From a virus (Duplodnaviria; Caudoviricetes): a stretch of 34,059 bases of DNA. A program made the position numbers and the translations under genes. Numbering within the stretch: the stretch's first letter is position 1; every line of letters begins with the position of its first letter. The notes beneath the pieces are model-generated. The model ran no database searches, had not been told where the DNA came from, and saw only the letters and a list, made by a program, of their open reading frames with translations. The stretch spans positions 1 through 34,059 of IMG/VR virus record IMGVR_UViG_3300030376_003719. One strand, written 5' to 3'. Below, in pieces: positions 9,200 through 31,307 of this stretch.

Positions 9200-10605
9200 C
9201 AGTCAATTTTGTGACCGCGAAAACAGGCATCTTCGCACGCCTTGGCAAAATCTTTGGCGTTTGCGATCGCCTGGAAGACTTCCAGTCTGATGTTGTAGAC
9301 AACGCTTCCAAGAGTTTTCAGGAAGCAATCAATGAGTATGTCAACACCCTTGGCGCAACTGCAAACACTGACTTGGACATGGCATCGTCTCTGATCTCAG
9401 GATTGGACGACATGCGGAACACTTTGGCTGCGCCTGTATACAACAGGCTCAAAGTTGCTGCGACTGTGACACTCATCACAATGATGGACGATGATGCCAA
9501 GCTGGCAACCAAGACGACTGAAGCTGCATTGCGTGAGCTTCGTGACCAGATGGTTGCAAACAGCAAGACAGTTGACGGGACCACGGTGACTATTGGAACG
9601 CCAAGCGTCAGCGGGACCGGCAACGGGACTGTCGTTGCCAGTGTTGAGCCTGACAACTTGTACCATCGAACAGTCACCGCTTTGCCTACTGCGCGAAGCG
9701 AGACTATCAAGATGACTTGTGTCAAGGATGCGACCAGTCCCAATGTCGTCGCTGGTGCCGAGATATTTGCTGTCGAAGGTGACGTTGCATACCCTGCGAC
9801 AGACCACAGATGGCCTGGTGGCTCAGGCAATGTCGGTCGCATCGCGTGTTTTTCAGACAACCTGAATGACGGACGCGGCACGCGAAACATGCTACGCAAC
9901 TCGAACTTCGAGAACTGGAGCGCACACACACCAAAGGCGTGGGCGATCCCAACTGGTTCTGCCGGATCAGAAGTTCTGCAAGACAGCAGCCTGTTTGCAA
10001 GGGGCAGCAACTCTCTGAAGATGGTCAGCGATGGGTCAACCCTGATTAGATGTCACCAGCAACTGAACAGCACATCCGGGTCACCATCGAAGCCTTCTGT
10101 TGACGACCTCTATGTCATCTCTCTTCTTGCACGCAAGAGCGGAACAGGATCTAGTGCAGGAGCGTTGAAGGTCGGACTTGCCCAATCTGACGGAACTGGT
10201 GTCAGCAACTCTACGTTCACTACAGCTCACGGCAGCATCTCTGACTCGGCATGGACTCATCTGACATACAGTTTTCGCGCTGGTGGCACAGGGTTGTCCT
10301 TGCCAAAAGACATGTATTTCATGATCCAGCAGTCAACCGCATTCACCAATGGAACTAACCTTCACATTGACGGCCTCGTTTTGGCGAAGATGCACAAGAC
10401 AGCGTTGGGTGGTGTCGCGCTTGGTATCGTGCCAGGTTCGACGGACTTCATTGTTGGCGACACAATTAGCGTGCAGATCACCAACAATGGCGAGGGAGAC
10501 ATGGAGCGTTTCTTGGACAAGTTCTTCAACACATATCAGTCAGGGATTTTCATGCCGCAGGATCTTGCAGGCTCCGAGACTGTTGCTGACAGCTTGATTA
10601 GCTAG
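9196..10605 (+). CDS. Virion protein with carbohydrate-binding-module-like domain
   Basis: 469 aa; NMLRNSNFENW...G.NSLK...WT...F...IDGLVL resembles a CBM4/9-type beta-sandwich; last gene of the late block. Confidence 0.6.
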   Translation: MTVNFVTAKTGIFARLGKIFGVCDRLEDFQSDVVDNASKSFQEAINEYVNTLGATANTDLDMASSLISGLDDMRNTLAAPVYNRLKVAATVTLITMMDDDAKLATKTTEAALRELRDQMVANSKTVDGTTVTIGTPSVSGTGNGTVVASVEPDNLYHRTVTALPTARSETIKMTCVKDATSPNVVAGAEIFAVEGDVAYPATDHRWPGGSGNVGRIACFSDNLNDGRGTRNMLRNSNFENWSAHTPKAWAIPTGSAGSEVLQDSSLFARGSNSLKMVSDGSTLIRCHQQLNSTSGSPSKPSVDDLYVISLLARKSGTGSSAGALKVGLAQSDGTGVSNSTFTTAHGSISDSAWTHLTYSFRAGGTGLSLPKDMYFMIQQSTAFTNGTNLHIDGLVLAKMHKTALGGVALGIVPGSTDFIVGDTISVQITNNGEGDMERFLDKFFNTYQSGIFMPQDLAGSETVADSLIS

Positions 10606-10615
10606 TAGACTGCTC

Positions 10616-10709
10616 AGGACGCGAAAGCGTCCTCCCTTTCCCGCGCTCCCGTCGAGGCAACTCCGGGAGCGCGGTTCTTATATGAGAACACCCCGCGCAT
10701 GGCGGGGTG
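10616..10709 (+). terminator. Cluster of four hairpins after the last late gene (terminator and/or structured RNA)
   Basis: AGGACGC-GAAA-GCGTCCT (10616-10633); 11-bp stem 10641-10651/10664-10674 capped by GAG-GCAA-CTC; weak 10674-10689; CACCCCGC/GCGGGGTG (10689-10709). Confidence 0.55.
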
Positions 10710-10982
10710 CCTTGACCCTTGTGTAAATTGGGACAGCACTGAAGCTGAGAATGCGCGAACGCGCTTGGGTCTATGTACCTGACAGTCCCGCACAGCGATC
10801 CTGACCGCCTTGGGCAAAAAAAAGGTATATCCCCCCATCTATATATAGGATGGCCCACAGGGCGCGTCTGGCCCTGAGAATCCAAAATATATTTCAACCC
10901 CCAAAAACGCTATTCTGAGGCTGCCAGGGCTGTTTTTCACCCTACAAAGGGTATGCAAAGGTAAAAACAAAGGGTCTACCAC

Positions 10983-11010
10983 TTGCATATTGCCTAGAGT
11001 TTGGTATAAT
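10983..11010 (+). promoter_or_regulatory. Strong sigma70-type early promoter
   Basis: TTGCAT (10983-10988), 16 nt, perfect TATAAT (11005-11010) with extended -10 TG; A-rich upstream; start expected near 11016-11018. Confidence 0.8.
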
Positions 11011-11016
11011 GAAAGT

Positions 11017-11648
11017 GTCGAAAGGGGCGAAAGCCAACCTCGACCACAAGGGCTGGGCAGGTCTAAGACCTCCGAGCAGCAGAAATACTCAGAACGCAGG
11101 TTCATTCGCAAGTCCACAAAACTGCCTCTGACGAAACAAAGACCCCGAAGTCGAGGGGACTAGATGGCAAGCCCAGTCCTTGTGGTCAAGAGAGGCGGAA
11201 GCCAATTTCGACTAGCACAAAGGCGTGCTGAAAAGACAGGCAAGTATGGCAGACCAAAACCAGAAAGCCGTGGTGAGTAGGATAAACCGCCTTTGCGCTA
11301 GTCGGGATTGACAAGCCCAGATCATCAAGGGGGCAGCAGCCTACTTTGGAAACAGCCTATCGGGCGAGTTGCGGCGGCTCTTCGGAGCAACAACAGATCG
11401 CAGAGTGCAGGTAGGTCAGTACGGGTAGGTTGCTGCACCCACCATCTTTGACAAGTTAGTAGAACGGGTATCCCTTCCCAAGTCCTAGATTGAAGATCCG
11501 AAAGATTGTCCTCGGACATGACGTTTCCTCTCATCTGGCGGCCTCTGAAAGATGGCGAAAGGGTCGAAGAGATCACTGAACAACGCTTCACATCTCCAGA
11601 CTGCAAGTAGCTTCCAAGCCACAAGAAGGGATGCTCGTTTCACTAACT
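11017..11648 (+). ncRNA. Candidate large structured RNA/leader with four long-stem-closed domains
   Basis: Stems 11042-11058/11171-11187, 11203-11225/11288-11310, 11333-11344/11425-11436, 11454-11477/11625-11648; G-U pairs outnumber A-C mismatches on +; GNRA and UUCG tetraloops; no credible ORF. Confidence 0.75.
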
Positions 11649-11668
11649 CATCTTTGAAAGGGATGCAC

Positions 11669-11821
11669 ATGAGTATCAGCACCACATGCGATGTGTGTGA
11701 ACACGTCATGAGCCGAGAAGAAGAGGCCACTCTGGTCACTTTCACAGGACACGAACACGAAGGTCGAGTTCTTTGTCTTGACTGCATGGCAAAGGTCATT
11801 GACGAAACCGTCGTTTCCTAA
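11669..11821 (+). CDS. Small zinc-finger protein (50 aa)
   Basis: CDVC...CLDC; starts at the ATG of the repeat, not the track's 11552. Confidence 0.7.
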   Translation: MSISTTCDVCEHVMSREEEATLVTFTGHEHEGRVLCLDCMAKVIDETVVS

Positions 11822-11845
11822 AAACCATCTTTGAAAGGGATGCAC

Positions 11846-12133
11846 ATGACTACACGATCAGCTATCAAGACACGCTTTGTCGGTCCCACCAATCACCGAC
11901 CCGCTAGGATCATCGCCAGCGATGGACGAACCGGGATGGACAGTTGGAGACTCACGGTCAGCTATGACCATGCGCTCAACATCGACGAGAACCACCAGGC
12001 TGCGGCTCAAGCGTGGATGCACAAGTTTCTCGACACGCGCTTCGGCAAGCCTGTGGTGTTCGGCCCCGGTTACGTCTACGGCGAAGATATGTTCTGGTCG
12101 TGGGAGTTTGTGGAGGACAAAGCCAATGTCTAA
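11846..12133 (+). CDS. Phage early hypothetical protein
   Basis: IKTRFVGPTNHRPARIIA motif; repeat RBS. Confidence 0.75.
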   Translation: MTTRSAIKTRFVGPTNHRPARIIASDGRTGMDSWRLTVSYDHALNIDENHQAAAQAWMHKFLDTRFGKPVVFGPGYVYGEDMFWSWEFVEDKANV

Positions 12134-12386
12134 GAACAAGACCTTGGAGGATTTCAATGTGTCACTGACTATCACCCCGCATCCTGCGCGTGCGCGTATC
12201 TACGCCACGCTGCGGGAGGCGGAAGACGCGGCGATCCTCTTCAACGCAGAAGTTCACTCTGACCTCCAGGCCCACGCTGCGCTCGATGGGTACTACCACG
12301 ACGCAGGCGCAAAAGTCACAGTCAGCTTTGTCAGAGACCTCGACTCAGAGCGTAAGTGTTTCACAGTAATCGGATGGCTTGCATAA
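12126..12386 (+). CDS. Hypothetical early protein
   Basis: GGAGG RBS then ATG 12126 (MSKNKTLEDF...). Confidence 0.65.
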   Translation: MSKNKTLEDFNVSLTITPHPARARIYATLREAEDAAILFNAEVHSDLQAHAALDGYYHDAGAKVTVSFVRDLDSERKCFTVIGWLA

Positions 12387-12401
12387 CTGAAAGGGATGCA
12401 C

Positions 12402-12671
12402 ATGAGCGAACAAGGACCGGAATACATTGTCTTTCACAGAACATGGTGGCGCAAAAACGCAGACTGGCCTCGCGGCTTGGAGCCTTGGCTCGGCAACAAG
12501 ACCAAAATATGCCATGTGAAGACTGAGGAGGAAGCGCGGAAAGAGTGCTACGACTGGAACTTCAGATTCAACCTGTGCCGCACGCACAAAAAGAAGGACA
12601 AGGAACTCGGAAGAAAGGCCGAGTACATGAGGGCCGATCTGTACAAGCGGCGGCAAGGGCCGCAAAATTGA
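12402..12671 (+). CDS. Basic hypothetical early protein
   Basis: Repeat RBS; YIVFHRTWWRKN...TEEEARKEC..WN. Confidence 0.7.
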   Translation: MSEQGPEYIVFHRTWWRKNADWPRGLEPWLGNKTKICHVKTEEEARKECYDWNFRFNLCRTHKKKDKELGRKAEYMRADLYKRRQGPQN

Positions 12672-12682
12672 AAGGGATACAC

Positions 12683-13138
12683 ATGACTACCGAAAACATT
12701 CTTCACCACATTTCCACTACCCGCACCGCCCTTGAGAATTGCCGAACGTCAGGCAACATCGAATGGGAGGAGCGGCACAGTGAGCGTCTGTTCCAGCTTG
12801 TTGGTCATCTCAGCGGCAACGGCACTGCCATCGAACTGTCCGAGAGCATGACCAACATGCACGGCCCTGATGAAGACCCTGAAGCTCTGGTGTTCAGCCT
12901 GATGCACAACATGATCACTGAGCATGGCATGGACGATGGACGATTCGAGATGACTATCATTCTCCGTCCCGGATTCCTCAGTCCCAACATCACTGTCGAA
13001 GCACCACGCAGTGCGTTCGAGGAGCGTTGGCCGCATGAGGACTATGACCGATTCATCGACTTCATGACTGACGTTCTGATGTCACGACTCGAAGAGCCTG
13101 CGCCTCAAGCGTGGATTGCTGCGCTGGTCGGCAACTGA
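12683..13138 (+). CDS. Acidic hypothetical early protein
   Basis: Repeat RBS; NC..SGN.EW...H and H...EHGM.DG motifs. Confidence 0.7.
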   Translation: MTTENILHHISTTRTALENCRTSGNIEWEERHSERLFQLVGHLSGNGTAIELSESMTNMHGPDEDPEALVFSLMHNMITEHGMDDGRFEMTIILRPGFLSPNITVEAPRSAFEERWPHEDYDRFIDFMTDVLMSRLEEPAPQAWIAALVGN

Positions 13139-13152
13139 TTATCATCCCCTTC

Positions 13153-13188
13153 AGCCCCCACACTCCTTCGCGGGGTGTAGGGGGTTTT
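13153..13188 (+). terminator. Rho-independent terminator ending the first early operon
   Basis: AGCCCCC-ACACTCC-TTCGC-GGGGTGT-A-GGGGG followed by TTTT. Confidence 0.7.
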
Positions 13189-13211
13189 AGCTACAGAAAG
13201 AGAGCAATCAA

Positions 13212-13994
13212 TTGTGGATCATCCCATCAACCATATTAGCCTCTGCGCCGGATACGGTGGTATCGATCTCGGACTCGAGCGCGTTCTGCCAACATGCAGA
13301 ACAATCACTTATGTGGAGATCGAAGCCTTCGCCATCGCAAACCTGGTTGCGAAGATGGAAGCGGGAAAGCTGGCTCCAGCTCCTGTCTGGACGGACCTGC
13401 ACACCTTTCCGTTCGATCAGTTTCACGGAGTGGTGGATATCATCACTGCGGGCTTTCCGTGTCAACCCTTTAGTCAATCCGGCAAGCGTGACGGTGTCAG
13501 AGACAAACGACACTTGTGGCCCCGGATCGCCGAGGGCATCCGACGATCCCGACCAACTCTTGTTTTTATGGAGAACGTTGACGGCATCGCAACAGCCAAG
13601 TCGCCTGGTTACCACTCAGTTCTCCAGCATGTCCTTGCAGACTTGGAAGGGATGGGTTTCAGAGCGACGGCAGGACTCTACACGGCGGCTGAAGTCGGCG
13701 CACCGCACCTGCGAAAGCGATGGTTCGTCCTTGGCTTGGCCGACACCAACGACAGCGGAGGCGGGCAAGATAGGCAACAGAGCGAACCACGGCCAACGAG
13801 GCTTGAGCAACCACCCGACACTTCAAGGTGTTTGCAACCGCAAGCCATTGAACAAGTCACGCGGTGGCCTGCCGGACCAGCCGAGGAACAACACGATTGG
13901 GAAAAGCCGAGGACAATTGAACGTGCAGTGGGTCGAGCAACTAATGGGGCTACCACTAGGTTGGACCGCCTTAGATTGCTTGGGAATGGAGTAG
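13212..13994 (+). CDS. Overlapping alternative-frame (beta) polypeptide of the C5 methyltransferase
   Basis: 260-codon frame nested in the MTase carrying WPTP and LNVQWVEQLMGLPLGWT (motif IX-like); true start may be internal. Confidence 0.75.
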   Translation: MWIIPSTILASAPDTVVSISDSSAFCQHAEQSLMWRSKPSPSQTWLRRWKRESWLQLLSGRTCTPFRSISFTEWWISSLRAFRVNPLVNPASVTVSETNDTCGPGSPRASDDPDQLLFLWRTLTASQQPSRLVTTQFSSMSLQTWKGWVSERRQDSTRRLKSAHRTCESDGSSLAWPTPTTAEAGKIGNRANHGQRGLSNHPTLQGVCNRKPLNKSRGGLPDQPRNNTIGKSRGQLNVQWVEQLMGLPLGWTALDCLGME

Positions 13995-14053
13995 TGCCGC
14001 AACAAGCCGCAAAGGCGTTTGTGGAGCTTATGGAGGAATTGACCAATGAATGA
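13214..14053 (+). CDS. DNA (cytosine-5) methyltransferase, large (alpha) polypeptide
   Basis: Motif I SLCAGYGG, IV GFPCQPFS, VI ENV, VIII R.RWF, X LGNGVVP; motif IX absent in this frame. Confidence 0.92.
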   Translation: MDHPINHISLCAGYGGIDLGLERVLPTCRTITYVEIEAFAIANLVAKMEAGKLAPAPVWTDLHTFPFDQFHGVVDIITAGFPCQPFSQSGKRDGVRDKRHLWPRIAEGIRRSRPTLVFMENVDGIATAKSPGYHSVLQHVLADLEGMGFRATAGLYTAAEVGAPHLRKRWFVLGLADTNDSGGGQDRQQSEPRPTRLEQPPDTSRCLQPQAIEQVTRWPAGPAEEQHDWEKPRTIERAVGRATNGATTRLDRLRLLGNGVVPQQAAKAFVELMEELTNE

Positions 14054-15651: not shown

Positions 15652-15832
15652 GGAGTTTTGCCAACTGTATCGTTTGTGCAAAACCCTCGACTTCAAAGAA
15701 CTCAAGGTACAATTTCCTGGTCGCGCTGCTGAGTTCAGCGCGATGCAACACACTCTCAACCAAATCGAAAGGGAAATAAATGAGAGACAACACACTAGCT
15801 ACGAGGACTGCTCCAGAGCTTCCGGTCGGTGA
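15626..15832 (+). CDS. Hypothetical protein
   Basis: ATG 15626 (MKEQTTLIEEF...), packed operon. Confidence 0.5.
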   Translation: MKEQTTLIEEFCQLYRLCKTLDFKELKVQFPGRAAEFSAMQHTLNQIEREINERQHTSYEDCSRASGR

Positions 15833-16631
15833 GGTCGCAAAGTATTTCGTGCAGTCTGGTATGTTTCCAGACACCAAGCAGCTTGCGACCGCTGCAACCA
15901 AGCTCATCGTTGGTCGTGGCCTCGGCCTCAGCGACTACGACTGCATGGGTGGTTTGCACATCATCCAAGGCAAAGCAGTGCTTGCCAGCAACGCCATGAG
16001 CGCGGCCATCAAGGCCAGCGGCAAGTACGAGTACCGCGTCGTTGAGCAAACGGAAAGCAAGTGCGTCATCGACTTTTTCATGGTTCACGGTGGCAAGCTG
16101 GGTGACAAAATTGGTTCAACCACATGGACGATGGAGAAGGCGAAGCGGGCTGGCCTGAACGGTCAGAACTGGAAGAAGTATCCGGAGGCCATGCTGTTTG
16201 CCCGTGCAATCAGCGAGGGATACCGGACGCATTGCCCGGACGCGCTCGGATGCTCTGCGCCTGTCTACGTCGAGGCTCATGGCGAGTCAGAGATTCCTGG
16301 TACAGAGCCTCAGATCGTTGACACCACTGCAACCGTGGTGGAGGAGCAGCTTGAGAAGCGCAAGAACAAGGAACTTGATCGAGAGACTTTGCGGGGCCGA
16401 CACATTGACAGGGTTCAGGAAGCAAGCTCTGGTCAATACAAGTGGGATGTCATCATGGTCGAGGGTGATGAACGCAGGTTCTCGACGTTCTCAAAGACTA
16501 TGGGCAAGGTCGCCCGCGCAGCACAGGTTGAAAAGGTCATGTGCGACGTTGAAGTCGTCTTGATCGAGAAGCCGAACGGTGACCAGCACTGGAACCTCGC
16601 TGAAATCGAAGCGATGGAAGGAGCGTCTTGA
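15780..16631 (+). CDS. Single-strand annealing recombinase (RecT/Red-beta-like)
   Basis: HIIQGK...AKRAGL...NWKKYPEAMLFARAIS...CPDALG; adjacent to Gp157. Confidence 0.8.
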   Translation: MRDNTLATRTAPELPVGEVAKYFVQSGMFPDTKQLATAATKLIVGRGLGLSDYDCMGGLHIIQGKAVLASNAMSAAIKASGKYEYRVVEQTESKCVIDFFMVHGGKLGDKIGSTTWTMEKAKRAGLNGQNWKKYPEAMLFARAISEGYRTHCPDALGCSAPVYVEAHGESEIPGTEPQIVDTTATVVEEQLEKRKNKELDRETLRGRHIDRVQEASSGQYKWDVIMVEGDERRFSTFSKTMGKVARAAQVEKVMCDVEVVLIEKPNGDQHWNLAEIEAMEGAS

Positions 16632-22846: not shown

Positions 22847-24059
22847 CAGCATGAGGCCAGCACTCAAACTCCCGCCCCCATACCAGAAGCAATATGAGGC
22901 TATATGTGATCCGGCCCGCATTGTGGTGATCGAGGCCAGCACCAAGAGCGGCAAGACTGCCGGGTGCCTGATGTGGATGCTCCAGCAGGCATGGAACAAT
23001 GGGCCTGGCCGTACCTACTGGTGGGTCGCTCCCATCTACGCGCAGGCCAAGAACATCGGCTTTATCCGCATGAAGAACATGCTGAAGCAGGCTGATCCCG
23101 ACAAGAACATTTGGTCATCACATGAGGGGGATCTGTGGGTCGAGCTACACAATGGGTCGCGCATCTGGTTCAAGGGTGCTGACAATCCCGATAGCCTGTA
23201 CGGTGAGGATGTGTATGGGGCTGTCATTGACGAGGCTTCCCGCTGCAAGGAAGATGCGTGGGTCGCTGTCCGCTCGACCCTGACTGCAACGCAAGGCCCG
23301 GTCAGGATCATCGGGAATGTGAAGGGTCGCCGGAACTGGGCCTACCTGCTGGCGCGACTTGCCGAGGGTGGCGAGTCAAACATGGCCTACCACAAGCTCA
23401 CTGCATATGACGCGGTTGAGGGTGGCATCCTCGCCGTTGATGAGGTCGAGTCAGCCAAGCGCATTCTGCCGGATCACATATTCCGAGAGCTTTACCTGGC
23501 GGAACCTTCTGACGATGGCGGCAACCCGTTTGGAATTGCTGCTATCGAAAAGTGCATTCAGCCGATGTCTATACAATCCCCTGTCTGCTTCGGAGTCGAT
23601 CTAGCCAAGTCCGTTGACTACACGGTTGTCGTGGGTTTGGACGATGAAGGTAGGGTAGCATCTTGTGAACGCTGGCAAGGCACAGATTGGAAAACCACCG
23701 TTGAGCGAATACATCGACTGGTCGGAGATGAACGATGCCTTGTGGATTCGACTGGACTCGGTGATCCAGTCGTTGAGCAACTGCAAGAACTCATGCCACA
23801 GGTTGAAGGGTTCAAGTTCAGTGCGTCATCAAAACAGCAGCTTATGGAAGGCTTGGCGCAGGCGATTAGCCGACAGGACATCGGATACCCTGACAACTGG
23901 CTGCGAACAGAACTGGACATCTTTGAATACGAACACACAAGAACCGGAGTCAGGTACGCCGCTCCCGCAGGCTCGCACGACGATGGCGTTTGTGCGCTCG
24001 CTCTGGCTGTCCGCGCTCAAGCGCAACTGAGTACCGGATTCTCCTTTAGGGTCTTTTGA
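22839..24059 (+). CDS. terL: Terminase large subunit
   Basis: Walker A STKSGKT, WVAP, Walker B AVIDEA, nuclease GVDLA and HDD..CALALA. Confidence 0.95.
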   Translation: MIDSMRPALKLPPPYQKQYEAICDPARIVVIEASTKSGKTAGCLMWMLQQAWNNGPGRTYWWVAPIYAQAKNIGFIRMKNMLKQADPDKNIWSSHEGDLWVELHNGSRIWFKGADNPDSLYGEDVYGAVIDEASRCKEDAWVAVRSTLTATQGPVRIIGNVKGRRNWAYLLARLAEGGESNMAYHKLTAYDAVEGGILAVDEVESAKRILPDHIFRELYLAEPSDDGGNPFGIAAIEKCIQPMSIQSPVCFGVDLAKSVDYTVVVGLDDEGRVASCERWQGTDWKTTVERIHRLVGDERCLVDSTGLGDPVVEQLQELMPQVEGFKFSASSKQQLMEGLAQAISRQDIGYPDNWLRTELDIFEYEHTRTGVRYAAPAGSHDDGVCALALAVRAQAQLSTGFSFRVF

Positions 24060-27000
24060 TGCTGCAACAAATCAAGTCACTGTTCAATCCCAAGGAATAC
24101 TTCAATTCCTCAATCCGGCTACTGGAGCGAGGTGGTCGGCATGGATCGACCAACCCTCCCTTCTCGTATCGGCACGCGGTACATGAGTTCCGGTCATGGG
24201 TCTACGCTGCCGCGATGATAAATGCCAACGCGGTTGCGGCCACTCCGCTTCGACTCTATGCGCGAAGGTCGGTTGGCAAGAAGGGACTGTGGCGAACCAG
24301 GCCGGTCAACCGAAAGCGTCTCGACTACCTGAACGGTGAGCTTGGCGGTGACCATGCCCCATCTCGCGCAGTCATGACCAAGATCATGGATCTCGGTGAT
24401 GACATGGAAGAGATCACCGAGATGCACCCGGTGAAGGAGCTGTTGCAGAAGGCCAACCACGTCTACAACGGCTTCGACCTCACAGTGCTGAGAACGCTCT
24501 ATCAGGAGTTGACCGGAAACGCATACTTGCACCCTGTCATGGACCAGCAGCTTGGCGTGCCTGTCGAGCTTTGGCCCATGCCAGCGCAGTGGATGCAAGT
24601 CATCCCATCCCGCGACAACTTCATCGAAGGCTACAGCTATGGCAGGACAGATGTCGAGGCTCTGCGCTTCGAGGTCGATGAGGTCATCCACTTCAAGCGA
24701 CCCAACCCCGACAACCTGTTCTATGGGTTGGGCAAGGTCGAAGCTGCGTATGGAACGGTGCAGGCTAATCGCGCAGTGCATGAGATGGACTTGGCGACAT
24801 TCGAGAACCACGCGAGGCCGGACTATGCGGTGATCGTGAAGGGTCCGCACAAGCGCACCGACCTCGACCTGTTCGAGCAGCATGTGTCCGAGCGTCTGCG
24901 CGGTACTCGCAAGGCTGGTCAGTTCCTCGCCATGTCTGGCGATGTCAACCTCATGCCGCTCAACTTCCCTCCAAAGGATCTCAGTGGTCGTGACGAGATT
25001 GTCGAAGAGATCGCTGCGGTGTTCGGCGTTCCTGTGTCGATGCTCAAGGCCAATGACCCGAACCTGGCATCTGCGCGTGCTGGCTTTGCTCAGTGGCGCG
25101 AGTCCACCATCCTGCCCATGCTCCGGATGGATGAGGACGTACTAAACCAAATCCTTCTGCCTATGTTTGGCATTGAGGAAGATGCCTGCCTTGCGTATGA
25201 CAACCCTGTCCCGGCTGACAAGGAGTATGAGCTTCGAGAGCGTCAGGCTGCTGTCGCTGGCGGGTGGCGCACTGCGAATGAAGCACGCAAGGAGGAAGGC
25301 AAGGAAGAGTTTGACGACGAGATGGCCGACGCACTCATGGTTGGCGGCCTGCCGCTCGGTGCTGCCGCGCAAATGGGTATGGGCATGGGCATGGGCATGG
25401 GTATGCCGCCAATGCCGATAGGCAACGGTGCGCCCTTGCCGCCAGGACCGGAAGAGGAAGCACCTGCACTGCCTGAAGCTGAAGAGGCACCAGTGCAGGA
25501 GCCAGAGGTTGCACAGAACTTTGCGCTCAATGGGGCGCAGATTTCCAGCATCGTCGAGGTCTTGCAGAACGTCGCGTCTGGCATCATCTCGCGTGACGCA
25601 GCCATCGAGGTCATTGTTGCTACTGGCGTAGGCCGAGAGCAGGCAGAGGCAATGGCAGTGAGCCAGCAGGAAGAAGCTGCTGCTCCAGTCGAGGCCGAGC
25701 AAATTGAGGACAAGGCTGTCGAACCCGGTGACATGGATCTTTACGACACAAGAGAAGAAGCTGAGGCTAGAGCAAGGGAGCTTGGTTGCGAAGGTGCCCA
25801 CGAACACGAGTTTGAGGACGGAACTGTCCAGTACATGCCATGTGGCGAAATGGACGAGTACACCGAGCTAACCGGGCTGGCACATGAAAAGGCCATCTCA
25901 GACGTTGACCTGAAGCCAACTGAGTCAATGGCAAACTTTGCCGAGCGAGGACTCAAGCTCAGGCAGGAACATGGCCGGGGCGGAACGGAGGTTGGGGTCG
26001 CCCGTGCGCGTGACCTCAAGAACAGGGACACGCTGTCACCGGAAACAGTGCGACGTATGCACTCGTTCTTCTCGCGTCACCGCGTAGACTTGCAGGCACC
26101 AGCGGCCAAGCCTGGACACAAGGAGTACCCATCAGCAGGTGTCATCGCTTGGCTGCTTTGGGGCGGGAACCCGGCCAACCCTGATGGTGGTGGTGCTGGG
26201 TGGGCAGCGCGTAAGGTCGAAGAGCTTGAGCGTTCTTCCAAGAGCTACACCAAAGCCAAGGGCGACAAGGAGCAGTCAACGCCTGCCAAGCCCAACGAGC
26301 GCGTCAGCGGCTCTGACCAAAACAAGCCGGGAAGCGCAGCCAACACACGCGGCGGCATCGAAATCTCAGAGTCTCAGGAGAAGGCTCTGAAGAACAAGGT
26401 TGAGGAACACAACGAAAAGCACGGCGACAAGAAGGGCAAGAAGGTGACCTTGGGTATGCTCAAGTCCGTGTATCGTCGCGGTGCTGGCGCGTTCTCAACG
26501 TCGCACCGTCCGGGTATGGGTAGACAGCAGTGGTCGATGGCTAGGGTCAATGCCTTCTTGCATCTGGTTCGCACTGGTAGCCCAAAAAACTCCAAGTACA
26601 CGACCGACAACGACCTGCTACCCAAGGGTCACCCGAAGAAGGGTGGGCAGTCAAAGAACTGTGGCACCGGAGCAGGTGGATTTCAAGCAGGCAACGATTG
26701 CGCCACTGGTCCAGGTAGTGCAGGTTCCAGCAATGGAGGCAAGGCCAGCAGCCCAAAGAAGGTCAACGACCTAGCACGCAAGATCCGTGAGGATGGCGGG
26801 TTCACATACAACCCGATGAACGACTCGGCACCAACCACAGGTTTTGCGGTTAGCCCGTTCAAGGAGCTTGAGATGGTTGTCGATGTCCAGAAGCCGGAAG
26901 GCATGGACGTTGCCAAGTACCGAGAGAACATCAGGCCCAAGTTGCGCGAGTACATCCAGAAGAACATTGAGCTTCTCGGTCGTGAGGGCGCACACCTTGG

Positions 27001-27148
27001 CGGCTGGTACGACAAGGACAACGGCAAGGTGTACATCGACATCTCGCTTGTCAGAGACAGCATTGAGGACGCAATGAAGATTGCCAAGGACAACGATCAG
27101 GAAGCCATCTTCAACCTCGAAACCTTTGAGACGATCAGCGCGAGGTAA
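24056..27148 (+). CDS. Portal protein (HK97-like, ~first 430 aa) with ~600 aa of appended modules
   Basis: HP..ELL, LTGNAY, EVIHFK.PNP...YGLG, EIAAVFGVP, TANEAR portal motifs; then low-complexity linker and several discrete domains; ATG alternative at 24059. Confidence 0.92.
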   Translation: MMLQQIKSLFNPKEYFNSSIRLLERGGRHGSTNPPFSYRHAVHEFRSWVYAAAMINANAVAATPLRLYARRSVGKKGLWRTRPVNRKRLDYLNGELGGDHAPSRAVMTKIMDLGDDMEEITEMHPVKELLQKANHVYNGFDLTVLRTLYQELTGNAYLHPVMDQQLGVPVELWPMPAQWMQVIPSRDNFIEGYSYGRTDVEALRFEVDEVIHFKRPNPDNLFYGLGKVEAAYGTVQANRAVHEMDLATFENHARPDYAVIVKGPHKRTDLDLFEQHVSERLRGTRKAGQFLAMSGDVNLMPLNFPPKDLSGRDEIVEEIAAVFGVPVSMLKANDPNLASARAGFAQWRESTILPMLRMDEDVLNQILLPMFGIEEDACLAYDNPVPADKEYELRERQAAVAGGWRTANEARKEEGKEEFDDEMADALMVGGLPLGAAAQMGMGMGMGMGMPPMPIGNGAPLPPGPEEEAPALPEAEEAPVQEPEVAQNFALNGAQISSIVEVLQNVASGIISRDAAIEVIVATGVGREQAEAMAVSQQEEAAAPVEAEQIEDKAVEPGDMDLYDTREEAEARARELGCEGAHEHEFEDGTVQYMPCGEMDEYTELTGLAHEKAISDVDLKPTESMANFAERGLKLRQEHGRGGTEVGVARARDLKNRDTLSPETVRRMHSFFSRHRVDLQAPAAKPGHKEYPSAGVIAWLLWGGNPANPDGGGAGWAARKVEELERSSKSYTKAKGDKEQSTPAKPNERVSGSDQNKPGSAANTRGGIEISESQEKALKNKVEEHNEKHGDKKGKKVTLGMLKSVYRRGAGAFSTSHRPGMGRQQWSMARVNAFLHLVRTGSPKNSKYTTDNDLLPKGHPKKGGQSKNCGTGAGGFQAGNDCATGPGSAGSSNGGKASSPKKVNDLARKIREDGGFTYNPMNDSAPTTGFAVSPFKELEMVVDVQKPEGMDVAKYRENIRPKLREYIQKNIELLGREGAHLGGWYDKDNGKVYIDISLVRDSIEDAMKIAKDNDQEAIFNLETFETISAR
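25373..25405 (+). repeat. ATGGGY hexamer repeat encoding (MG)5M linker
   Basis: ATGGGT ATGGGC ATGGGC ATGGGC ATGGGT ATG directly after the portal domain. Confidence 0.8.
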
Positions 27149-30163: not shown

Positions 30164-30250
30164 CAGCTTGTAGAAGAGGCAGTCAGTCTCAGCAACAAGG
30201 ACTCCAAAAAGATCACACTGACCACAGAGGACAACGATGAGCAATCTTGA
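30041..30250 (+). CDS. Small acidic helical protein (peptidase partner candidate)
   Basis: MAQVVLPETKEDIDEYL...EMARVRQLVEEA, coupled to the peptidase stop. Confidence 0.7.
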   Translation: MAQVVLPETKEDIDEYLEEYDRAQKEMSGEAPDKEEMARVRQLVEEAVSLSNKDSKKITLTTEDNDEQS

Positions 30251-31307
30251 ACACTTCAACCTGGGTCCAGTGTCGGACGTAGACCCCGATGTGCTGACCG
30301 ATCAGATTCTTGATGCGCTTGGCCTGTACATTGAAGATGACGCGCAGCCAGAAAAAACGAACAAGGCACTGGACAGCCTGACAGACCTCATGCAGAAAGT
30401 CGCCGAGGGCAAGCTCACTGCGTCTGCCGCTATCTCGATCACCAAGTCCGCTGGCTTGCATGACGCGGATGTCGAGGATGCCATCATTGCTCAAAGCGTG
30501 ATTGGCAGGCGGGCCATTGCTAAGGCTTTGGCTACTGAAGAGGAAGAAGAAGATGTGATGAGCGTCGGGTTGCCTATGCGGCGACGATTGCTCAACCAAC
30601 TCGACCTCAACGGAGATGGCATAGTTACCTCTGAAGACTTCAACGTGTTGCTGGGCAACTTCGGCTCAAGCGGTGTGGGCGACCTCAACGGAGACGGAAT
30701 TGTGAACGGGCTTGACTTTGGCTTGTTCACCAGTTTGTTGGGACAATACGGCGGATATGATGATCCTGTAGAAAAGGAAGAAGAAGAGAAAGAAGAAGAA
30801 GGCGAACAGGAAGAAGAGAGCGACCCAAACCAGGATGTCTTCGATCAGATGGATGCGGACGGCGACGGGACGATCAGCCAGGATGAATGGCGAGACTATC
30901 GTCAGATCATGCGCGACATTCGAGATGGAGAACTTCCATACGACCCAGCGTATGACCTCAACGGCGACGGCGTAGTAAACAATCAAGACATCGATATTGC
31001 ACAGAACATTCGGGAAGGCGGCAGTCCTTTACGCAAGCTGGAGCATCAGAAAGAGGTTGATATGATTCTTGATGCGGTGCTTGACGAAAAGAAGCCCGAT
31101 TTCGATGAAAAGACCGGCATTGAAATCGCCGGATTGCTTAGTCAAACCTTGGGTACGCAGTTTGCAATTGTTGATCGGGTTCGGCGTGCTATTTATGGAC
31201 GAACAAATGCTGACAAGGACAAGCCAGGAAGAGGACCAGCAAGTGTCACGTCAGACGCTGGAGGTCCATTGGGTTCAGGAACCACGCCAGGAGGCGGTGG
31301 CGGATGA
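30237..31307 (+). CDS. Acidic protein with dockerin/EF-hand Ca-binding repeats
   Basis: DLNGDGIVTSEDF, DLNGDGIVNGLDF, DADGDGTISQDEW, DLNGDGVVNNQDI. Confidence 0.75.
   Translation: MSNLEHFNLGPVSDVDPDVLTDQILDALGLYIEDDAQPEKTNKALDSLTDLMQKVAEGKLTASAAISITKSAGLHDADVEDAIIAQSVIGRRAIAKALATEEEEEDVMSVGLPMRRRLLNQLDLNGDGIVTSEDFNVLLGNFGSSGVGDLNGDGIVNGLDFGLFTSLLGQYGGYDDPVEKEEEEKEEEGEQEEESDPNQDVFDQMDADGDGTISQDEWRDYRQIMRDIRDGELPYDPAYDLNGDGVVNNQDIDIAQNIREGGSPLRKLEHQKEVDMILDAVLDEKKPDFDEKTGIEIAGLLSQTLGTQFAIVDRVRRAIYGRTNADKDKPGRGPASVTSDAGGPLGSGTTPGGGGG

What the first reader, a model, noticed from the sequence alone, without database searches (positions are those of the whole stretch)
11017..11648. First transcript is a ~630-nt array of four RNA domains, each clamped by a long stem
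Seen: directly after a near-consensus promoter, four non-overlapping inverted-repeat pairs: 17 bp (11042-58/11171-87), 23 bp (11203-25/11288-310), 12+ bp (11333-44/11425-36) and 24 bp (11454-77/11625-48), enclosing unrelated, internally folded inserts of 112, 62, 80 and 147 nt. At least 7 G-U pairs versus 3 A-C mismatches favour selection on + strand RNA. Insert 3 is a rod ending in cUUCGg; insert 4 is a multiway junction. Known: ~20-bp imperfect stems are RNase III substrates, as in rRNA precursors and T7 early RNA. Inference: a polycistronic cassette array of small RNAs released by RNase III at the start of infection, in the slot where phages put anti-defence genes (decoys for defence proteins, antitoxin mimics or aptamers). 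I do not recognise it as a known RNA family.
Basis: partly seen in the sequence, partly recalled or inferred. Interest (0 to 1): 0.88.

Follow-up and report, generated by a model that had tools for sequence, protein, structure and literature searches.

The report
Swappable RNA cassettes in phage leader
Right after its likely first promoter, this uncultured marine phage carries four stem-closed sequence modules that related phages gain and lose like small genes; they are predicted to be folded RNAs, likely made and cut out by the host's ribosomal-RNA machinery, and would most likely act as protein decoys, which is untested.

Summary
The four stems are real at the stated coordinates and far beyond chance. 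The region is a variable array, not one fixed RNA. Relatives carry domain 3 alone, directly after the same promoter: it is 111/112 and 98/110 identical while the tail gene's silent sites are saturated, and it shows two compensatory pairs. Domains 1+2 (306 nt) and domain 4 (206 nt) are cleanly absent there, at 5- and 9-nt repeats, and small protein genes sit where domain 4 sits. Domains 1 and 2 share a paralogous, structure-preserving frame with unrelated inserts. They match rRNA-operon boxA, and domain 4's stem starts at boxA as pre-23S processing stems do. No Rfam family matches. Best reading: exchangeable RNA-gene cassettes in an rRNA-operon-style frame, probably released and acting in trans. 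The main rival is a cis-acting, lambda-pL-like leader.

The parts
10983..11010 (+). Likely sigma70-type early promoter: TTGCAT (3/6 -35), 16-nt spacer, extended -10 TGnTATAAT; predicted +1 near 11017
   Evidence: sequence; -10 box at the same place in L012, L038, L024 by eye; not listed by the consensus scan
11017..11022 (+). 5' end GUCGAA, predicted to pair with 11447-11452 (inside the first boxA-like site) and close domains 1-3
   Evidence: pair probabilities 0.58-0.84; MFE
11017..11058 (+). Unit 1 left frame: GGC-GAAA-GCC hairpin (11026-11035) and 5' arm of stem 1 (11042-11058)
   Evidence: paralogous to the unit 2 frame, 0 of 2000 shuffles score as high
11059..11170 (+). Domain 1 insert, 112 nt, no homologue found
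   Evidence: insert z +0.41
11171..11187 (+). 3' arm of stem 1; overlaps the start of unit 2
11185..11225 (+). Unit 2 left frame: GGC-GGAA-GCC hairpin (11194-11203) and 5' arm of stem 2 (11203-11225)
   Evidence: versus unit 1: one two-sided change, three one-sided changes that keep or gain a pair, one that breaks a pair, and a 3-bp insertion in both arms
11226..11287 (+). Domain 2 insert, 62 nt, A/C-rich loop, no homologue found
11288..11310 (+). 3' arm of stem 2
11024..11329 (+). 306-nt block (domains 1+2) absent in relatives; the joint falls in a 5-nt GGGGC repeat
   Evidence: joint 11023>11330 in runs X6, X10, X14; L012
11330..11440 (+). Domain 3: conserved rod RNA of about 110 nt; arms 11333-11344/11425-11436, cUUCGg loop 11380-11385, loop-E-like GAA (11349-11351) and AGUA (11418-11421; motif recalled)
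   Evidence: 111/112 identical to L012, 98/110 to L038; 2 two-sided and 3 one-sided pair-keeping changes, 2 pairs broken, of 36 pairs
11444..11453 (+). boxA-like site ATCTTTGACA, directly before stem 4, not followed by a ribosome-binding site
   Evidence: B. subtilis boxA consensus in PMC13753749; TCTTTGAMA before the 23S stem in 6 of 6 proxy operons, the GACA form in 5
11454..11648 (+). Domain 4: 24-bp stem (11454-11477/11625-11648) around a 147-nt insert; the frame resembles rRNA processing stems (GGGTA at 11466; RYAYCNYTTC arm at 11468)
   Evidence: absent from L012 and L038 and from the laid contigs of X6, X10, X15, where another cassette follows; bounded by CATCTTTGA repeats at 11443 and 11649
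11649..11671 (+). Cassette-head repeat: boxA-like ATCTTTGAAA (11650-11659) overlapping the Shine-Dalgarno GAAAGGGA (11656-11663) of the first early gene (11669-11821); further copies at 11826, 12388, 12669
   Evidence: proxy 16S ends CACCTCCTTTCT

Best explanation
The stretch is a variable array of four stem-closed modules that related phages gain and lose at short repeats; it is likely the start of the first early transcript, likely transcribed under the host's rRNA-type (boxA/Nus) antitermination complex, likely cut at its long stems by RNase III, and the freed RNAs would most likely act in trans as decoys for host proteins. Shown: the stems, the modular presence and absence, the conservation and compensatory changes of domain 3, the shared frame of domains 1 and 2, and the boxA-like sites with their position at the foot of stem 4. 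Inferred step by step: (1) host RNA polymerase starts near 11017; (2) each module folds on its own as it is made; (3) NusB-S10 loads at boxA after domain 3 and carries the polymerase through domain 4 into the early genes; (4) as no terminator follows the array, free RNAs need cleavage, most plausibly by RNase III in stems 1, 2 and 4, leaving domain 3 as a rod; (5) cassettes are probably exchanged by the phage's RecT-like protein at the same repeat that heads the early protein genes, so they would be selected like accessory genes. My odds: modular array 0.9, RNA-level selection on domain 3 0.85, boxA functional 0.7, RNase III release 0.55, action in trans as decoys 0.35.
For: Modularity: L012, L028 and L038 carry domain 3 alone. 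Runs X6, X10 and X14 join 11023>11330. The four-domain form also occurs in another sample of the same study (X2) and in another study (X4, pieces 10971-11122 and 11251-11502, no differences). After domain 3 and boxA come different cassettes: domain 4 in the window, protein genes in L012 and L038, other sequence in X6/X10 (295 letters) and a gene-like start in X15. Selection: domain 3 is 111/112 and 98/110 identical, against 36/99 and 26/84 four-fold sites in the tail gene and 205/340 in the upstream spacer of L038; it has two A-U>G-C double changes. Frames of units 1 and 2 are homologous and keep their pairing, while the best pairwise insert p is 0.03 of 6 tests. boxA: all 3 + strand ATCTTTGAMA-type sites of the 34-kb genome lie at 11444-11836. 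TCTTTGAMA is present in the slot of 5 of 5 loci with a long RNA leader and 0 of 9 others with at least 950 nt in view (the lineages are related, so not independent). It matches the B. subtilis boxA (PMC13753749, passages). Exact TCTTTGAAA stands before 16S in 8 of 11 proxy genomes with the leader in view. TCTTTGAMA stands before 23S in 6 of 6 proxy operons, where the processing stem begins at boxA; 4 of 6 have GGGTA 10-12 nt later, and domain 4 has it 11 nt later. No + strand terminator-like site was found in 9500-14000. A RecT-like gene is at 15780-16631. One pb+db set suffices for RNase III (PMC1540722, abstract).
Against: Inserts alone fold no better than shuffles. No homologue of domain 1, 2 or 4 was found, so their insert structures are untested by covariation. 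Domain 3 covariation rests on two distinct lineages and is not significant in the tool's control (60 of 500 shuffles as high); its high identity could also reflect recent exchange, since L038 shares early genes with the window. Domain 3 always lies in cis, just before boxA. The 11650 and 11827 sites overlap a Shine-Dalgarno and form a small CAUC/GAUG hairpin, so they may be translation signals, and the first boxA is predicted to pair with the 5' end. Domains 1 and 2 have no clean boxA before them. The rRNA-stem likeness of domain 4 is post hoc, uses genomes of a proxy phylum, and the RYAYCNYTTC motif matched only 3 of 6 proxy operons. The host is not established. No target or partner protein was identified.
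Confidence: 0.45

Rival explanations
1. A cis-acting early leader like lambda pL: domain 3 plus boxA is an antitermination platform (nut- or put-like), and the stem of domain 4 is an RNase III switch that tunes translation of the first genes. Domains 1 and 2 are accessory tuning elements. Nothing acts in trans.
For: Domain 3 is followed by boxA in every case seen. L023 and L024 have a different 65-nt element in the same place before boxA. boxA overlaps the Shine-Dalgarno of the first two genes. Nus binding near a Shine-Dalgarno represses suhB and lambda N translation (PMC5725501, passages). No N-like protein was recognised.
Against: Eight relatives run the same early region from short leaders with neither the RNA nor boxA (by eye). 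Domain 4 swaps with protein-gene cassettes. A cis switch does not explain two paralogous frames with unrelated inserts.
Confidence: 0.25
2. One large ornate RNA (GOLLD/ROOL-like) with optional subdomains that stays in one piece.
For: The 5' end is predicted to pair with 11447-11452 and close domains 1-3 into one multiway junction. The L024 leader is enclosed by one terminal stem. The size is in the range of such RNAs.
Against: No Rfam match. Domain 3 stands alone in relatives. No pairing between domains is predicted. Domain 4 lies outside the closing stem.
Confidence: 0.12
3. Domains 1, 2 and 4 are neutral or selfish inverted-repeat insertions (MITE-like), or hairpins that act at the DNA level; only domain 3 is functional.
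For: The long arms look like terminal inverted repeats. Domain 4 lies between 9-nt direct repeats and domains 1+2 between 5-nt repeats. The inserts are not more stable than shuffles. The minus strand folds almost as well. They were seen in one lineage only.
Against: Single copy in the genome. No transposase among the ORFs scanned. The 9-nt repeat is the phage's own cassette head. The frames of units 1 and 2 keep pairing through G-U and a two-arm insertion, and keep a GNRA loop.
Confidence: 0.08
4. The domains are self-cleaving ribozymes of an undescribed class that cut the early transcript.
For: A relative (L014) has a type II hammerhead among its early genes (RF02276, 44.1 bits). Hammerheads flank phage genes such as ardA (PMC3088659, passages).
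Against: No ribozyme family matches at gathering score or at E up to 10. I found no intact hammerhead core by eye. Long closing stems would hold the products together.
Confidence: 0.07
5. The region encodes short peptides.
For: Several + strand ORFs of 20-57 codons overlap the array.
Against: None carries the phage's GAAAGGGA ribosome-binding site. Domain 3's changes follow base pairing.
Confidence: 0.03

Closest known systems
Bacterial rRNA operon leader and spacer (boxA, NusB-S10 complex, RNase III processing stems)
   Same: Strong promoter, untranslated folded RNA, boxA directly followed by the 5' arm of a long stem that encloses an RNA (domain 4).
   Different: No rRNA or tRNA; stems enclose 62-147 nt; the first boxA comes about 430 nt after the start; the transcript runs on into protein genes; the content varies between relatives.
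Phage lambda pL leader (nutL, RNase III stem, N gene)
   Same: Early promoter, boxA, then a long stem before the first gene (nutL about 200 bp upstream of N: PMC5725501, passages; the RNase III stem is recalled and appears there only as a reference title).
   Different: No N-like protein or lambda-type boxB recognised; four modules rather than one stem; modules are exchangeable.
Phage T7 early RNA with RNase III sites (recalled)
   Same: First transcript punctuated by long imperfect stems.
   Different: T7 stems are hairpins between protein genes; here the stems enclose non-coding inserts.
GOLLD and ROOL RNAs (PMC12286853, passages)
   Same: Large phage-encoded structured RNAs of unknown function; GOLLD is known from marine samples.
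   Different: No match to their Rfam models; no tRNA island; domain 3 occurs alone; no inter-domain pairing predicted.
UG27 reverse-transcriptase ncRNA arrays (bioRxiv 10.64898/2026.09.22.753630, abstract and passages)
   Same: Phage array of roughly 150-nt units, with gain and loss of single units between close relatives.
   Different: UG27 units share one fold and template cDNA for a linked RT; here only two units share a frame, the inserts are unrelated, and no RT was found among the ORFs scanned.
Phage RNA counter-defence genes: vsgRNAs (bioRxiv 10.64898/2026.06.01.729453, abstract) and Racrs (recalled)
   Same: Precedent for small phage RNAs that sequester host defence proteins.
   Different: No CRISPR-repeat or tracrRNA family matches; no Acr or Aca neighbour recognised; host Cas systems unknown.

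Membership tests
Any Rfam 15 family (GOLLD, ROOL, riboswitches, ribozymes, SRP, 6S, tmRNA) | Covariance-model match at the gathering score | tested here: not met
   0 matches in the window; only SNORD63 at E 6.1 on the minus strand at E up to 10; ARAGORN 0
GOLLD/ROOL-type large ornate RNA | One conserved fold over the whole length | tested here: not met
   Domain 3 occurs without domains 1, 2 and 4
GOLLD/ROOL-type large ornate RNA | Often near tRNA islands | tested here: not met
   No tRNA in the 34-kb record
rRNA-operon-type expression unit | boxA sequence in the leader | tested here: met
   11444, 11650, 11827 match the B. subtilis consensus and proxy rRNA operons
rRNA-operon-type expression unit | Long stem starting at boxA and enclosing the RNA | tested here: met
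   Domain 4 only; not met for domains 1-3
rRNA-operon-type expression unit | NusB-S10 binding and antitermination | not testable with these tools
   Needs binding or reporter assays
rRNA-operon-type expression unit | Encodes rRNA | tested here: not met
   No Rfam rRNA match; longest sense match of the four domains to 6 proxy operon stretches is 12 nt
RNase III substrates | Helix of at least one turn | tested here: met
   17, 23, 12 and 24 bp
RNase III substrates | Proximal and distal box determinants of the host enzyme | tested here: inconclusive
   Domain 4 arm matches a post hoc motif of proxy 16S stems; stems 1-3 do not; host enzyme unknown
RNase III substrates | Cleavage with 2-nt 3' overhangs | not testable with these tools
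   No RNA run available
Lambda nut / N antitermination | N-like protein and boxB hairpin next to boxA | tested here: inconclusive
   No family hit for the early ORFs; GNRA hairpins lie 240 and 410 nt upstream of boxA and are absent from the domain-3-only relatives
UG27 ncRNA array | Linked reverse transcriptase | tested here: not met
   None among 52 ORFs against PHROGs and 40 against Pfam
UG27 ncRNA array | Units share one fold | tested here: not met
   The domain 3 model hits no other unit; inserts not alignable
Hammerhead and other known self-cleaving ribozymes | Catalytic core and Rfam match | tested here: not met
   the same scan found the hammerhead in L014
MITE | Multiple copies and a cognate transposase | tested here: inconclusive
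   Single copy and no transposase found in the phage; host genome not available
vsgRNA / Racr | Repeat or tracrRNA of the host's Cas system | not testable with these tools
   Host unknown; no Rfam CRISPR family at E up to 10

The most novel reading that the evidence does not exclude
Phages keep an exchangeable pool of RNA-only accessory genes: unrelated RNA payloads are slotted into reusable stem frames copied from the host's rRNA processing signals, traded at the same repeats as early protein genes, mass-produced in the first minutes of infection, and used as decoys against host defence or takeover targets. Domains 1-4 and the modules of L023 and L024 would be six new RNA gene families in one small phage group.
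Probability: 0.3. Interest if true: 0.9.

Novelty: new variant of a known kind. Interest (0 to 1): 0.7.

Why it matters
Early regions of phages are mined for anti-defence proteins, and gene callers skip this stretch as intergenic. Here natural variants show that non-coding modules are gained and lost in that slot as units, one of them in the place of a protein gene. If the RNAs are released and act in trans, phage accessory genomes include a class of RNA genes that protein-centred searches miss. The promoter-module-boxA-stem grammar gives a way to find them, and each module is small enough (110-195 nt) to test in vitro without the host.

Tried and rejected
Rfam at gathering and at E up to 10, and ARAGORN: nothing. 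blastn against phages: no match; against plasmids: one chance 38-nt hit. Pattern scans of viral contigs: unit 1/2 frame, 11 hits, none a homologue; domain 3 loops, 1 of 26 real and the same contig as L012; domain 4 frame, 0 of 18; L023/L024 element, the 3 contigs already known. An early-gene anchor gave 31 loci and no new homologue. The domain 3 model over 45 sources found only its 3 training sequences. The prokaryote genome scan gave 3 weak, short hits and no host. Sequencing runs: no RNA holder listed, which says nothing about expression. A hexamer shared by three inserts (GCAAGT) is chance-level (p about 0.10). CAAG is about twofold enriched (12 versus 6.4) and was not pursued. Antisense matches of inserts to the phage genome or to proxy rRNA: only at E 0.67 or worse (11-nt matches and one 19-nt imperfect match). 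Sarcin-ricin loop, SRP, 5S, Y RNA, T-box, tracrRNA, twister, HDV and group I likenesses were considered by eye from memory and dropped. Literature searches listed no paper describing this array; I saw titles and abstract starts only, apart from the papers cited. Published catalogues of candidate phage structured RNAs (recalled) and their supplements were not checked and could hold domain 3. One paper on boxA in CRISPR arrays was not held.

Full report
Setting. The window is the whole 34,059-nt record of a tailed phage with its recognised genes on the + strand: head-tail connectors, then unassigned ORFs ending at 10605 that I take from their position as the tail module, then small early genes, a DNA methyltransferase, RecT-like and Gam-like proteins, terminase, portal and head genes. 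Runs that hold it are marine metagenomes. The host is not established. A terminase relative at 60% identity is named from a Planctomycetota genome, one ORF has dockerin/EF-hand repeats, and the ribosome-binding site GAAAGGGA fits a 16S end CACCTCCTTTCT; I read this as a weak pointer to Planctomycetota. The finding lies between the last tail gene and the first early gene (11669).

Observation. The four arm pairs are exactly as described, with 67 Watson-Crick, 7 G-U and 2 A-C pairs. Four stems score at least 12.5, against a maximum of 1 in 200 shuffles and in 51 other windows; a threshold of 10 did not discriminate. The region folds at z -5.6 on + and -4.5 on -. Each domain pairs only within itself, while the 5' end is predicted to pair with 11447-11452. 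The inserts alone are no more stable than shuffles (z +0.41, -0.17, -0.87, +0.93). The G-U excess has p=0.09. The promoter has a perfect extended -10 but a 3/6 -35, and the consensus scan missed it. Rfam and ARAGORN find nothing.

Relatives show a cassette array. The last tail protein gave 11 viral loci and 20 metagenome loci. L012 (and L028, identical over the stretch printed) has the same promoter and start sequence joined directly to domain 3, then the cassette-head repeat and a protein gene. Domains 1+2 (306 nt) are missing at a 5-nt repeat and domain 4 (206 nt) at a 9-nt repeat. Of 8 runs laid, X6, X10 and X14 show the same 306-nt joint, X15 holds domain 3 followed by a different gene-like start, X1 (possibly the source), X2 and X4 hold the four-domain form or pieces of it without differences, and X12 covers only upstream DNA. 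L038 has domain 3 alone behind a TTGACA-17-TATGAT promoter. So what follows domain 3 is an exchangeable cassette: an RNA module in the window, protein genes in L012 and L038. Of 14 distinct loci with at least 950 nt in view (7 more had too little), 5 have a long non-coding leader and a TCTTTGAMA site, and 9 have no such site; eight of the nine show short leaders by eye, and L040 is inverted. These lineages are related, so the split is not 14 independent events.

Domain 3 is under selection as a structure, on thin sampling. It is 111/112 identical to L012 and 98/110 to L038, while four-fold sites of the tail gene match at 36/99 and 26/84. Of 36 pairs, 2 change on both sides, 3 change on one side and still pair, and 2 break. 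With two distinct lineages this is not significant in the tool's shuffle control (60 of 500). Recent exchange could also explain the identity, because L038 shares early genes with the window and the L012 spacer and early gene are 84% and 89% identical.

Domains 1 and 2 share a frame. Each begins with a GGC-GRAA-GCC hairpin and a stem of related sequence (0 of 2000 shuffles score as high). Between the two copies there is one two-sided change, three one-sided changes that keep or gain a pair, one that breaks a pair, and a complementary 3-nt insertion in both arms. Their inserts do not align. No homologue of domain 1, 2 or 4 was found anywhere I could search.

The missed feature is boxA. ATCTTTGACA (11444) and ATCTTTGAAA (11650, 11827) are the only such + strand sites in the genome. 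They match the B. subtilis boxA consensus (PMC13753749, passages). As a proxy for the host I read rRNA operons from the phylum of a Chthoniobacter genome: 12 of 41 genomes had a 16S match. Exact TCTTTGAAA precedes 16S in 8 of the 11 with the leader in view. TCTTTGAMA precedes 23S in 6 of 6 operons, and there the processing stem starts at boxA; 4 of 6 carry GGGTA 10-12 nt further on. Domain 4's stem starts at the last base of boxA, has GGGTA 11 nt on, and its inner arm fits a motif of the 16S stems. That likeness is post hoc, and the motif matched only 3 of 6 operons. L023 and L024 repeat the grammar with other contents: a shared 65-nt element, boxA, then a stem-closed module. The two downstream sites overlap a Shine-Dalgarno and may serve translation instead.

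Mechanism. I commit to an array of RNA genes in an rRNA-operon-style frame (0.45). Modularity, domain 3 conservation, the shared frame and the boxA-like sites are shown. Transcription, Nus loading, RNase III release and action in trans are inferred. No + strand terminator was found, so free RNAs would need cleavage, and one proximal-plus-distal-box set can specify an RNase III cut (PMC1540722, abstract). The RecT-like gene offers a route for exchange at short repeats (established knowledge, not tested). The decoy role rests on position and on precedent (vsgRNA preprint, abstract); the neighbouring genes are of unknown function. The main rival is a cis-acting leader like lambda pL (0.25; PMC5725501, passages). 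A single large RNA (0.12), selfish insertions (0.08), new ribozymes (0.07; L014 has a type II hammerhead) and peptides (0.03) follow.

Known systems and novelty. It works like an rRNA operon leader or the lambda and T7 early leaders, but encodes no rRNA and has no recognised N protein. It is not GOLLD or ROOL (PMC12286853, passages) and not a UG27 array (preprint abstract and passages), though UG27 arrays are a precedent for gain and loss of RNA units in phages. Eight literature searches listed no description of this arrangement; catalogues of candidate phage RNAs and their supplements were not checked. Earlier notes of this scan report boxA-framed RNA arrays in other phages; I had noted boxA before reading them, did not test them, and do not count them as support. 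They suggest that the grammar is widespread, which lowers the uniqueness of this case. What this case adds is natural variants that gain and lose single modules. Verdict: a real feature, a new variant of a known kind, interest 0.7.

Noticed in passing
L014 4679-4740 (+): Type II hammerhead ribozyme (RF02276, 44.1 bits, E 4.9e-6) between early genes of the relative from a complete 32.9-kb record.
   Followed up: partly
L023 5714-5790 and L024 5696-5770 (also L022, L029, L034, L035): A different 65-nt element right after the early promoter, 73% identical between two lineages, with a CUGGC/GCCAG versus CCCGC/GUGGG stem by eye, ending in boxA-like TCTTTGACA; no Rfam match.
   Followed up: partly
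L024 5694-6010: About 310-nt leader RNA closed by a terminal stem, with a T-loop-like GGTTCGAGTCC near its 3' end; fold z only -1.8.
   Followed up: partly
window 11649, 11826, 12382, 12663, 17120: Cassette-head repeat TGAAAGGGATRCACATG before early genes (5 matches, 0.29 expected). The longer copies form a CAUC/GAUG hairpin around the Shine-Dalgarno; L014 uses an analogous hairpin repeat.
   Followed up: partly
L013, L023, L024 early regions: Repeated short GC-rich motif just before ribosome-binding sites (GGGGCGCGGCTCA..AACGCGC in L013/L023; GCGGGATGACCCCGCGCAAC twice in L024).
   Followed up: no
L082 2037-2275 (same as L083): About 240-nt rod-like fold (-104 kcal/mol) directly upstream of the early genes of another phage; no Rfam match at gathering score.
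   Followed up: no
L138 and L144, from 901: boxA-like site followed at once by a stem of about 20 bp in a non-coding stretch of another phage.
   Followed up: no
window 10606-10980: The upstream spacer holds two GC-rich inverted repeats after the tail gene and an A-tract/TATATATA stretch conserved in L012 (84% identity); possibly terminator and origin or packaging signals.
   Followed up: no
window 30237-31307: 356-aa protein with EF-hand/dockerin repeats inside the head-gene region.
   Followed up: no
window 24056-27148: Unusually long portal protein (1030 aa) with further domains of unknown function at its C-terminus.
   Followed up: no
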